Shown here: piece after piece, positions 43,001 to 46,000 of the stretch
Numbering within the stretch: position 1 is the stretch's first letter
How the letters are laid out: every line of letters starts with the position of its first letter
Origin: Escherichia coli
GTDB taxonomy: Bacteria; Pseudomonadota; Gammaproteobacteria; Enterobacterales; Enterobacteriaceae
DNA length: 64,000 bases
NCBI RefSeq assembly: GCF_050920415.1
Contig: NZ_CP169310.1
Reading direction: 5' to 3' (one strand)
Position numbers: made by a program

Positions 43001-46000
43001 CAGGGTATTTTTAGTTATTTATTGACCATGTACTCTGCCATAGTTTCTGCGTATCAACTGATAAGAGATAAGTTTTTTGTGTTTTTATTAAAAATGTGAT
43101 CCATCTTGCAAAAAAATAATCGTATAAACATGATGGGGTTAATGGGTAAATGTATATGTCTTTAAAGTATTGTGCAGATGGTTATTCTTGTTTCTGTTTG
43201 ATCGAATGGTTGTTTTGTCTGGTGTGAGTTTGTTGATGCGTATTAATTATACGCCAGGAACTTAAGTTAAGTATTGAAATCAGTGGACTGTACGGTTAAA
43301 TTTTTGTTTCAGCGTAGCTGATTCATCGTTATTCGAATATGACCAACGCACCTGTAATTGTTGTTTCTCTTGGAGCCCCCCACTTTTTGTGGGGATTTTT
43401 TTATTCCGTGTGTCGTTAAAAGGATACGCCCGGAAAACGTAATTGTTCCACATAAGAATAATTAATCTGAGCAAGTTATTTCATCCTGTCTTGTACAGAA
43501 CGTTCCACCACATATTGCGATTTTTATTCTCACGTAAAATATATTCTGCTGGTTTCAGTAATTCGGGAGATTTATGAGGCCTTTTACTGTTGTACAGTAC
43601 CGGGGGCGTATTTTCATGGAAGGAAATCACTCAATAACCGATCTCCTTCACGGTAATACGCATGAACAACAGAGAAAAAACAAAGATAGCTGATGCCCTG
43701 AGACAAACATATCCCCTGACAGAATTACTGCATGTTCTGGGCCTTGCCCGTAGCAGTTATTTTTATCACCGGGCTGCACTGAAAGCCGGTGATAAATACG
43801 CCACGATACGTACGATGCTGACAGATATCTTTAACAGTAATTACCAGTGTTATGGCTATCGTCGCCTGCATGCGATGCTCAGGCATGAGGGGGTTCGGCT
43901 ATCAGAAAAGGTTGTACGCAGACTTATGGTGGAGGAACAGCTTGTCGTCAGCCGTAACCGTCGTCGCCGCTACAGCTCATATTGCGGAGAAATCGGACCG
44001 GCTCCGGATAACCTTATCGCCAGAGATTTTAAGGCGGAGCAACCTAATCAGAAATGGCTGACAGATATCACGGATTTCCAGCTCCCTGCAGGTAAAGTCT
44101 GGCTATCACCGCTCGTGGACTGCTTCGATGGAAAAGTTGTGAGCTGGTCTCTCAGTACACGTCCCGACGCTGAACTGGTCAACACCATGCTGGATAATGC
44201 GGTCGAAACGTTAAATGCTGGCGAACGACCGGTGATACACAGTGACAGAGGTGGGCATTATCGCTGGCCAGGCTGGCTGGAAAGAGTGAATGCAGCAGGT
44301 CTTATTCGCTCAATGTCCCGTAAAGGATGTTCACCTGATAATGCCGCATGCGAAGGCTTTTTTGGCAGACTGAAAACGGAAATGTATTATGGGCGTAAAT
44401 GGTCAGACATCACGCCAGAAAAGTTCATGCAGCAAGTGGATGCTTACATCAGATGGTATAACGAGCGGCGTATAAAATTATCGCTGGGTGCCGTCAGTCC
44501 CAAAACGTACCGCCAACAATGCGGACTGGAATGATAAAGCAGTCCAAGAAATCGTCCGCATCCCCGTTTCTGTGCGCGGTCGGAGTGGTCCCGACGAGGG
44601 TTTACCCGAAGTCGGGGCGTATCTCCGCGTTAGCGGGCCGTGAGGGCCGCTTACGAGCGTGTACTGAGAACTTCCAGCAAGGATACAACCCACGCCGTTA
44701 CTGGTCGCGGAAAAATCTAGGTTTCCGGCTGGAACCCCTTGATCTGAGCTCTCAGTAAATATCAATACGGTTCTGGCGAGCCGCTTACGTTCTTTGAACG
44801 CAGCGGCTATCTCACGGGTGGTCATCCCTTTGGCATACAACGAGAGGAGCTGGTTATCCATCCCGGTAATACGGGTCTGATTTTTCTTTACCAGTTGTGG
44901 TTCGAAGGTACCGTCACGATCGCGCGGAGTACGCAGTTCCAGTGGACCGTCGCCTGTGATAACGGTCTTTGTGGAATAACCGTTGCGGGAGTTAGCTCCT
45001 GGTCTGGACTGATTTTTCTCATACCCAAGATGGTGTGTCATCTCTGCATTGAGAGCGGCTTCAACGCTGAGCTTTTTTAGCAGCCGATCAAACTGACTGA
45101 GGTCTTCAGGGGTTTTGAGGTTTTTGGCCAGTTCGTTAGCCAGAGCCTGTAACTGTTTTTCGTCCATAAATTAACCTTCATTTGATGCTGGATTGAACAT
45201 ATCAAAATCAGGCAATTACACAAATCTATGTACAGGCTCCACCAAGGGAATATCGACGTCAGCCAAGCTGAAACTATGTGATTGCCGTCAACAGTTACTG
45301 TTCAGTATTCTCCGTCCATCAATGGATTTAGCCGAATATAGTGATATATTATCTAAATTATAATAACCTTTATATTTCTGTTTTAAAAAGTTTATAAGCT
45401 CCATCTTATTTCCTACAAGATATTCACCAAAATTTGGATCAAAGAATAAAGAATGCCGACCATTTTTTATAAATGCTGTAGTATGTGACATTGTACCATT
45501 TGAAAGAGATAAATTAATAATATAAGAATCATCCTTTATATTATAGAGTTCAACAGGATTTACACCCCCTTTTATTTTTTTTAGGTGTATCTTTCCGTTT
45601 TTTATTAAGTATGGGTCTTTAATGGTTCCGCTTTCATATGCAAGTAACATTCCTCTGTATCTTGAGGAAAATGCATATGTCTTGCTAAAAAAAATGAAAT
45701 CACACTTTATGTCGTTTAATTTGTTATATATATAATCAATACACATAAAAAAACATAATCCATTATATATGCTTCTGTCTGTATGTTGAGACTTTATGAA
45801 TTCAGTTTGAGAAAACTTAAATATATTTTCCATATTTATCTGTATGTTTTCCATGTTTATTTCTGAACTTTAGGGTAAGATTATAACTTAATCTGACATA
45901 GGTTTTTATGATATATATCATTGAAATTGTAATTTCATATATATATACATGAGAGTGAGTGGTACTGTAAGTGACCTGAATACTTCAGGGCTTCACTGCG

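What the first reader, a model, noticed from the sequence alone, without database searches (positions are those of the whole stretch)
44562..45167. Nested insertion junction: an IS66-type terminus abuts an IS256-family transposase gene truncated at codon 126
The IS256-family transposase frame is intact for 126 codons and ends exactly where a 44 bp sequence identical to the IS66 terminus (reverse complement of 21155-21194) begins at 44788. The rest of that IS66 copy is missing; it is replaced by the miniature repeat and an orfA-less IS3-family orfB. The order of events can be read as: IS256-type element first, IS66 into it, then deletion or replacement. This marks a recombination hot spot next to the low-GC hydrolase gene.
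Basis: seen in the sequence. Interest (0 to 1): 0.35.

Follow-up and report, generated by a model that had tools for sequence, protein, structure and literature searches.

The report
Old nested insertion-sequence scar on plasmid
This is an ordinary, inherited scar in the insertion-sequence "graveyard" of a large E. coli virulence plasmid: the last 50 bases of an IS66-type element sit exactly against an IS1414 copy cut off at codon 126. The junction is real, but it is neither active nor new.

Summary
Window 44739-44788 matches the right terminus of the intact IS66-family copy (21155-21204) at 49 of 50 bases. Its outermost base (44788) abuts an internal base of an IS256-family element at 44789.

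That element is IS1414 (447/451 identical to a PGAP-named IS1414). It keeps its left inverted repeat (end at 45239), its leader and codons 1-126, and lacks the catalytic domain and the embedded astA toxin gene.

An IS66 end joined to an internal IS1414 base means the IS66 end moved into IS1414. All but 50 bp of the IS66 and the distal 864 bp of IS1414 were lost later.

It consists of a 57-bp piece that includes F-plasmid backbone from downstream of finO, a 116-bp IncFII segment from downstream of oriR (the "miniature repeat", five copies on the closest complete relative, pCFSAN004181P), and the 3' 903 bp of a 1604-bp IS3-family element.

The junction is base-for-base identical in related plasmids from the USA, Japan and the UK, and RefSeq already annotates both genes as pseudogene fragments. 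No ancestral arrangement survives in 5,426 E. coli genomes or 72,556 plasmids. The "hot spot" claim holds only historically. Interest is low.

The parts
43663..44565 (+). The 3' 903 bp (nt 702-1604) of a 1604-bp IS3-family element: orfB (HTH_21 + rve) plus an authentic right inverted repeat ending at 44565. orfA and the left end are missing. The ATG at 43662 is created by the breakpoint.
   Evidence: NCBIfam NF033516 profile positions 87-369. Pfam rve, rve_2 and HTH_21. 97.6% identity to the full copy L002:3300-4903, whose inverted repeats are GGGGATGCGGACGATTTCCTGGACT. In four plasmids homology ends at the same base...CGCATCCCC.
44566..44681 (+). A second copy lies at 40104-40199, with a partial copy at 38820-38869.
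   Evidence: 99-100% identical to many IncFII plasmids, where it lies between repA/oriR and the CPBP-pemIK genes. Five copies on pCFSAN004181P, one of them next to the resident IncFII repA. Folds strongly as single-stranded DNA on the + strand, z = -3.6 and -6.1. No Rfam match.
44682..44738 (+). A 57-bp filler. Bases 44685-44738 are F-plasmid backbone that normally lies downstream of finO. Both boundaries are non-IS breakpoints.
   Evidence: 98% identical to pEC17CM6_4 (L006:2501-2555) and 97.6% identical over 41 bp (44685-44725) to p1ColV5155. Unique in the window. In pEC17CM6_4 this piece lies about 510 bp before the 116-bp segment, the opposite order to the window.
44739..44788 (-). The terminal 50 bp of an IS66-family element (ISCro1-like in PGAP naming): right inverted repeat plus the last 5 codons and stop of tnpC. 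The outermost base is 44788.
   Evidence: 49/50 identity to 21155-21204 of the intact copy. 49/50 to an ISCro1-family copy that shares the Ser-variant codon. Among the IS66-end hits listed from complete E. coli genomes, homology ends at query position 254-256, i.e. at 44788 or within two bases of it.
44789..45239 (-). The left 451 bp of IS1414 (IS256 family): left inverted repeat (end at 45239), a 72-bp leader, and transposase codons 1-126 plus 1 nt. The catalytic core, astA and the right end are deleted.
   Evidence: 447/451 identity to IS1414 of UPEC85 and 448/451 to the intact IS1414 on pCFSAN004181P. Pfam Transposase_mut 16-125 of 379; the MULE core maps to residues 183-260 of the full protein. 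astA lies at nt 788-904 of IS1414 and so is absent here.
44478..45167 (-). A chimeric 229-codon ORF: 126 aa of the IS1414 transposase N-terminus fused to 103 aa read through the IS66, 57-bp, 116-bp and IS3 scars.
   Evidence: ORF list and translation. PGAP annotates only the 126-codon part, as a pseudogene. No convincing promoter was found upstream inside IS1414.
21155..23958 (-). The reference intact IS66-family copy (tnpA, tnpB, tnpC) used to define the terminus. It is flanked by the 8-bp duplication GTTGTTCA and carries a 100-bp tandem duplication of its left end.
   Evidence: NCBIfam NF038385, NF033819 and NF033517. Target duplication at 21147-21154 and 23959-23966. Tandem repeat 23758-23857 / 23858-23957.

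Best explanation
The region is a fossil of nested transposition followed by deletion, inside the insertion-sequence-rich accessory region of a ~224-kb IncF virulence plasmid (the pCFSAN004181P/pCFSAN004180G lineage).

- Shown: an IS1414 copy sat upstream of the low-GC YopT-like protease gene, and its left end at 45239 is intact.
- Inferred from the junction geometry: the right end of an ISCro1-like IS66-family element was joined by its transposase to IS1414 between nt 451 and 452. The junction uses the exact terminal base of the IS66 and an internal base of IS1414.
- Shown: everything of that IS66 except its last 50 bp is now absent, and so are the distal 864 bp of IS1414, which carried the DDE core, astA and the right inverted repeat.
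- Inferred: one or more non-transposase deletions joined the IS66 stump to a 57-bp piece containing finO-downstream backbone, and joined that to a 116-bp IncFII fragment from downstream of oriR. A 1604-bp IS3-family element had inserted into that fragment, as shown by its authentic right terminus at 44565, and this element later lost its own left 701 bp.

The result is inert. No complete transposase and no pair of ends remain for any of the three elements. The scar has since been inherited vertically within the plasmid lineage.
For: - Terminus definition: the intact copy has tnpA/tnpB/tnpC and an 8-bp duplication GTTGTTCA on both sides. An 8-bp duplication is the reported IS66 signature (PMC6778807).
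- The fragment matches that terminus at 49/50 bases, up to its last base.
- The IS1414 identity and the break point are exact.
- The fragment lacks the catalytic domain and astA.
- The pieces between were identified by BLAST against annotated plasmids.
- The same junction occurs in 16 complete E. coli genomes and 7 PLSDB plasmids. It is base-for-base identical in four plasmids from the USA, Japan and the UK.
- PGAP already calls both genes incomplete.
- Decayed IS1414 copies are reported as common (PMC12585946).
Against: - The hallmark of a simple insertion is a second copy of GTTCTTTG followed by the distal IS1414 part at the IS66 left end. It cannot be shown: it is absent from the plasmid and from both large collections.
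- The breakpoints 44738/44739 and 44681/44685 show no microhomology and no IS end, so the deletion mechanism is unknown.
- The order of the IS3-family insertion relative to the IS66 event cannot be determined.
Confidence: 0.85

Rival explanations
1. The junction was made by intramolecular transposition of an IS66 already resident on the plasmid. Its right end attacked IS1414 on the same molecule, and the intervening DNA was deleted or inverted in one step. On this reading the distal IS1414 part was never next to the IS66 left end.
For: No complementary IS1414 piece flanked by an IS66 left end exists on pCFSAN004181P or in any searched collection. IS66-associated large deletions are documented, although by homologous recombination (PMC6778807).
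Against: It still needs a later, separate deletion to reduce the IS66 to 50 bp, so it is not simpler. No direct evidence separates it from a simple insertion.
Confidence: 0.2
2. The 223-bp stretch 44566-44788 is a non-autonomous miniature element with an IS66-type end that inserted into IS1414 as a unit.
For: It ends in a perfect IS66 right inverted repeat. The 116-bp piece contains a GTAAGCGG...CCGCTTAC-like hairpin that resembles IS66 tips.
Against: The left boundary (GTTTCTGTG...) is not an IS66 end and abuts the IS3-family terminus, not IS1414. The stretch is a composite of two pieces with independent homes in other F plasmids. As a unit it occurs only in this plasmid lineage.
Confidence: 0.02
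3. The break is a chance or illegitimate-recombination event that merely happens to coincide with the IS66 terminal base, or it is an assembly artefact.
For: The region contains other breakpoints that are not at IS ends (43662/3, 44681/5, 44738/9).
Against: The coincidence with the exact terminal base has a prior of about 1 in 2,800 positions of the element. The junction is identical in independently sequenced plasmids from three countries.
Confidence: 0.02

Closest known systems
IS1414 (IS256 family), the astA/EAST1-carrying insertion sequence of E. coli, and its widespread decayed copies
   Same: 99% nucleotide identity over the retained 451 bp, with the same left inverted repeat and leader. 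Truncated or inactivated IS1414 copies are described as frequent in E. coli (PMC12585946).
   Different: Only nt 1-451 of 1315 remain. There is no DDE core, no astA and no right inverted repeat. The truncation point is an IS66 terminus rather than a simple deletion.
IS66-family elements of the ISCro1 group (tnpA-tnpB-tnpC, 8-bp target duplication)
   Same: The 50-bp remnant equals the right inverted repeat plus the tnpC stop region of the resident intact copy (49/50) and of a PGAP-named ISCro1-family copy (49/50).
   Different: It is a solo end. The target duplication cannot be verified, and the inner boundary is a non-transposase breakpoint.
Nested or truncated insertion-sequence mosaics ('IS graveyards') of large IncF virulence plasmids such as EHEC/ETEC plasmids
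   Same: Multiple partial insertion sequences of different families abut one another and flank low-GC virulence-type cargo. They are annotated as pseudogenes.
   Different: Nothing of substance. This is one specific instance.
IncFII segment downstream of oriR (by position, the primase-dependent 'G-site'/G4-type priming signal of R1/R100; from my own knowledge, not tested here)
   Same: The 116-bp piece is 99-100% identical to the segment a few hundred bp downstream of the repA/oriR region in IncFII plasmids, and it folds into a multi-hairpin single-stranded structure.
   Different: Here it is an orphan fragment with no adjacent replicon. Priming function was not tested, and the literature library held no sequence to compare.

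Membership tests
IS66 family (terminus) | The reference element encodes TnpA, TnpB and TnpC | tested here: met
   NF038385, NF033819 and NF033517 hits for ORFs 23123-23773, 22776-23123 and 21185-22756
IS66 family (terminus) | An 8-bp target duplication flanks the element, fixing the terminal base | tested here: met
   GTTGTTCA at 21147-21154 and 23959-23966. The 8-bp duplication for IS66 is reported in PMC6778807.
IS66 family (terminus) | Imperfect terminal inverted repeats starting with GTAAGCG (my own knowledge of the family) | tested here: met
   Left inverted repeat GTAAGCGCATCATTTAAACC... and right inverted repeat GTAAGCGGCTCGCCAGAACC...
IS66 family (terminus) | The fragment at 44739-44788 matches the terminus up to its last base | tested here: met
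   49/50 identity, E = 6e-19
Simple IS66 insertion into IS1414 | The 8-bp duplication (GTTCTTTG) and the distal IS1414 part lie at the other IS66 end | tested here: not met
   Absent from pCFSAN004181P. A chimeric-junction query found 0 of 5,426 E. coli genomes and 0 of 72,556 plasmids with at least 80% coverage. The absence could reflect later deletion.
IS256 family / IS1414 | Near-identity to a named IS1414 and a Mutator-type transposase | tested here: met
   447/451 nt identity to the PGAP 'IS256-like element IS1414 family' copy. PF00872 E = 5e-25 and NF033543 E = 3e-23, below the full-length cutoff because the gene is truncated.
IS256 family / IS1414 | Complete element: both inverted repeats, a 402-aa transposase and the embedded astA | tested here: not met
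   Only nt 1-451 of 1315 are present. astA (nt 788-904) and the right inverted repeat are absent.
IS3 family | OrfB with an rve DDE core, and terminal inverted repeats | tested here: met
   NF033516 E = 3e-100, profile positions 87-369. rve, rve_2 and HTH_21. The right inverted repeat is identical in position to that of the full copy in L002.
IS3 family | orfA and the left inverted repeat are present (complete element) | tested here: not met
   Homology starts at nt 702 of 1604
Active recombination hot spot | The junction varies among close relatives | tested here: not met
   Bases 44480-45260 are identical in three relatives, and a fourth differs by 2 SNPs. Variation is confined to neighbouring DNA.

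The most novel reading that the evidence does not exclude
The most novel reading not excluded is that the scar is not fully inert. Two routes are possible:
- The 229-codon ORF (the IS1414 transposase N-terminal, presumably DNA-binding, 126 aa plus an unrelated tail) is expressed and acts in trans as a truncated-transposase modulator of the intact IS1414/astA copy on the same plasmid.
- The solo 50-bp IS66 right end is still recognised by TnpC from the resident IS66. It would then define, together with the end at 21155, a 23.6-kb unit (21155-44788) bounded by two inverted right ends that could move.

No evidence for either was found. The flanks GTTGTTCA and GTTCTTTG differ, so this unit has not transposed as such.
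Probability: 0.05. Interest if true: 0.4.

Novelty: already known. Interest (0 to 1): 0.1.

Why it matters
It matters little beyond annotation.

- It explains why two 'incomplete transposase' pseudogenes and about 220 bp of unannotated DNA sit upstream of the YopT-like protease gene.
- It shows that this IS1414 remnant carries no astA, so it should not be counted as an EAST1 locus.
- It gives a lineage marker, an exact IS66/IS1414 junction, for a family of large IncF ehx/sta1 plasmids found in cattle, food and humans on three continents.
- It does not reveal a new mechanism or element.

Tried and rejected
- **Structured RNA or group II intron.** An Rfam scan of 40000-50000 at E <= 1 found nothing. 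The idea came from the GTGCG motif and hairpins in the 116-bp piece, and it was dropped.
- **116-bp piece as a MITE with an 8-bp duplication (ATGACAGA at 40095/40203).** Rejected. The left 'repeat' is native IncFII sequence, and the right one is an allelic variant of the same region.
- **57-bp piece as internal IS66 sequence, or a TnpC C-terminus.** Rejected. There is no similarity to the intact copy beyond 50 bp, and it matches finO-downstream backbone instead.
- **Missing IS1414 3' part next to an IS66 left end on the whole 224-kb relative plasmid.** Not found.
- **Predicted ancestral left junction in E. coli genomes and PLSDB.** None found. The apparent 8-10-nt extensions of hits were a T-rich chance flank.
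- **Recurrent neighbourhood of the IS3-like element and IS1414 in other plasmids (L002, L003, L008) as a clue to the ancestor.** The intervening and flanking sequences all differ, so no ancestral state could be inferred.
- **Literature.** The library search for G4-type priming signals returned nothing usable, and Han et al. 2001 on IS679/IS66 is not held.
- **Low-GC DNA left of 43662 as a DDE remnant.** Pfam gave no support.

Full report
**Source and context.** The window is 99.96% identical to positions 159829-221681 of pCFSAN004181P (NZ_CP012499.1, E. coli GB089, ground beef). This is a 224-kb IncF plasmid that carries ehxCABD, sta1, F4-like fimbriae, a type VI secretion system, SPATE proteases and dozens of insertion-sequence remnants. 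The only structural difference is an extra 2125-bp IS21-family insertion at window 47176-49300. RefSeq already annotates the two genes of the finding as 'IS3 family transposase, incomplete, missing N-terminus' and 'transposase, incomplete, missing C-terminus'.

**Checking the observation.** The minus-strand ORF that starts at 45167 is an IS256-family transposase: NF033543 at E = 3e-23 and Pfam Transposase_mut at E = 5e-25, covering profile positions 16-125 of 379.
- Its DNA, together with the 72-bp leader and the terminal inverted repeat up to 45239, matches IS1414 as named by PGAP in strain UPEC85 at 447/451 bases. It matches the intact IS1414 on the relative plasmid at 448/451.
- Homology stops exactly at 44789, after 126 codons and one base.
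- The next 50 bases leftwards (44788 down to 44739) are the reverse complement of 21155-21204: 49/50 identical, mismatch at position 41, E = 6e-19.

**Is it an IS66 terminus?** Yes.
- The copy at 21155-23958 encodes IS66-type TnpA, TnpB and TnpC.
- It is flanked on both sides by the 8-bp duplication GTTGTTCA. This is the duplication size reported for IS66 (PMC6778807), and it fixes 21155 as the outermost base.
- The ends begin with GTAAGCG, as I recall for the family.
- Among the IS66-end hits listed from complete E. coli genomes, homology ends at or within two bases of the position equivalent to 44788.
- The single mismatch changes Thr to Ser in the fifth-last tnpC codon. The same allele occurs in a PGAP-named ISCro1-family copy, so the fragment came from a sister copy and not from a recent duplication of the resident one.

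**What the geometry implies.** The junction joins the exact end of the IS66 element to an internal base of IS1414. The IS66 end was therefore the mobile partner, and IS1414 was there first.
- The 8 bp outside the end are GTTCTTTG. A simple insertion predicts the same 8 bp, preceded by the distal 864 bp of IS1414, at the IS66 left end.
- That second junction does not exist on the whole relative plasmid, where the other IS1414 pieces are unrelated fragments.
- It also does not exist in 5,426 complete E. coli genomes or in 72,556 PLSDB plasmids. The short extensions of some hits into the flank were a T-rich coincidence.
- Simple insertion followed by deletion therefore cannot be separated from intramolecular IS66 transposition followed by deletion.

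**What replaced the rest.** The inner boundary of the IS66 stump (44738/44739) is not an IS end. To its left lie three pieces.
- **44682-44738 (57 bp).** Bases 44685-44738 are 98% identical to F-plasmid backbone downstream of finO in pEC17CM6_4, and 44685-44725 are 97.6% identical to p1ColV5155.
- **44566-44681 (116 bp).** This piece is 99-100% identical to the IncFII region between repA/oriR and the CPBP-pemIK genes in very many plasmids. There are five copies on the relative plasmid, one at its native place beside the resident IncFII repA and one at window 40104-40199. It folds strongly as single-stranded DNA on the + strand, z = -3.6 and -6.1. By position it corresponds to what I remember as the primase-dependent G-site of R1/R100. 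That is a lead only, not tested here.
- **43663-44565 (903 bp).** This is nt 702-1604 of a 1604-bp IS3-family element whose right inverted repeat ends at 44565, the same base as in three other plasmids. That end is an authentic transposition junction into the IncFII fragment. The left end at 43662/43663 is a plain breakpoint, and it happens to create an ATG for an orfB-only ORF.

In pEC17CM6_4 the 54-bp and 116-bp pieces lie about 510 bp apart and in the opposite order. Their juxtaposition here therefore needs a deletion between two directly repeated IncFII remnants, or a similar event.

**Consequences.**
- The IS1414 remnant lacks the MULE/DDE core (residues 183-260 of the full protein), the right inverted repeat, and astA. 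astA lies at nt 788-904 of IS1414 in the -1 frame (PMC12585946).
- The reading frame stays open through the scars for 229 codons, but I found no support for expression.
- None of the three elements retains both ends and a transposase.

**Is it a hot spot?**
- The 781-bp stretch around the junction is identical in pCFSAN004180G (USA, lettuce) and Escherichia sp. 10290 pla1 (Japan, human). It differs by two SNPs in pRHB35-C09_2 (UK, cattle).
- Sixteen complete E. coli genomes and seven PLSDB plasmids carry it.
- Variation exists only nearby. Two IS2 copies interrupt the YopT-like gene in the Japanese plasmid. pCFSAN004178P_02 has a different 2.2-kb mosaic between the IS3-family end and IS1414 nt 400.

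The locus records many past events, but the junction itself is a fixed, vertically inherited scar.

**Verdict.** This is a routine example of insertion-sequence decay on a mosaic IncF virulence plasmid, it is already annotated as pseudogenes, and decayed IS1414 copies are documented as common. Interest is low.

Noticed in passing
window 21155-23958 (repeat 23758-23857 / 23858-23957): The intact IS66-family copy carries a perfect 100-bp tandem duplication of its left end, covering the left inverted repeat, the leader and the first 16 nt of tnpA. The 8-bp duplication GTTGTTCA flanks the whole 2804-bp unit, so the form with two left ends transposed as one element.
   Followed up: partly
window 47176-49300: A 2125-bp IS21-family element (istA/istB, ends TGTCAACGCC...GGCGCTGACA) with a 4-bp duplication GAGT. 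It is inserted at the end of a umuC remnant and is absent from the otherwise near-identical pCFSAN004181P, so it is a recent insertion.
   Followed up: partly
window 45288-45854 (- strand): A 188-aa YopT-type (Peptidase_C58) cysteine-protease-like gene at only 27-29% GC, boxed in by insertion-sequence remnants. The family match is weak (E = 1e-5) and covers the His/Asp region. In relatives the gene is interrupted by IS2 or shortened, which suggests it is dispensable.
   Followed up: partly
window 44566-44681, 40104-40199 and 38820-38869; pCFSAN004181P 135512, 18388 and 223264: The 116-bp IncFII segment from downstream of oriR is present five times on one plasmid, two of them near the duplicated sta1 regions. 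It is strongly structured as single-stranded DNA on one strand and may be a priming signal. Why orphan copies persist is unexplained.
   Followed up: partly
window 43662-44534: The start codon of the orfB-only IS3-family ORF is created by the deletion breakpoint (A from the flank plus TG of the element). This leaves an ORF with intact HTH_21 and rve domains but no left end.
   Followed up: no
window 45983-46123 and 54994-55134; 46085-46348 (- strand): A 141-bp direct repeat (98%) that overlaps the 3' end of an IS91-type zinc-finger transposase remnant (46085-46348, minus strand). It is probably another pair of insertion-sequence end fragments.
   Followed up: no
window 20425-20853, 28564-28992 and 31920-32347: Three copies of a ~430-bp repeat in the F leading region, near the ssb, psiB and antirestriction genes. 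From memory they resemble the repeated single-strand promoter (Frpo/ssi) modules of F-like plasmids.
   Followed up: no
window 29168-29257: A variable AGCAGT-type tandem repeat inside a leading-region ORF. The window and pCFSAN004181P differ in length by 18 bp between window 21100 and 43500 (coordinate offsets of two matches); this repeat is the probable site, but the difference was not localised.
   Followed up: no
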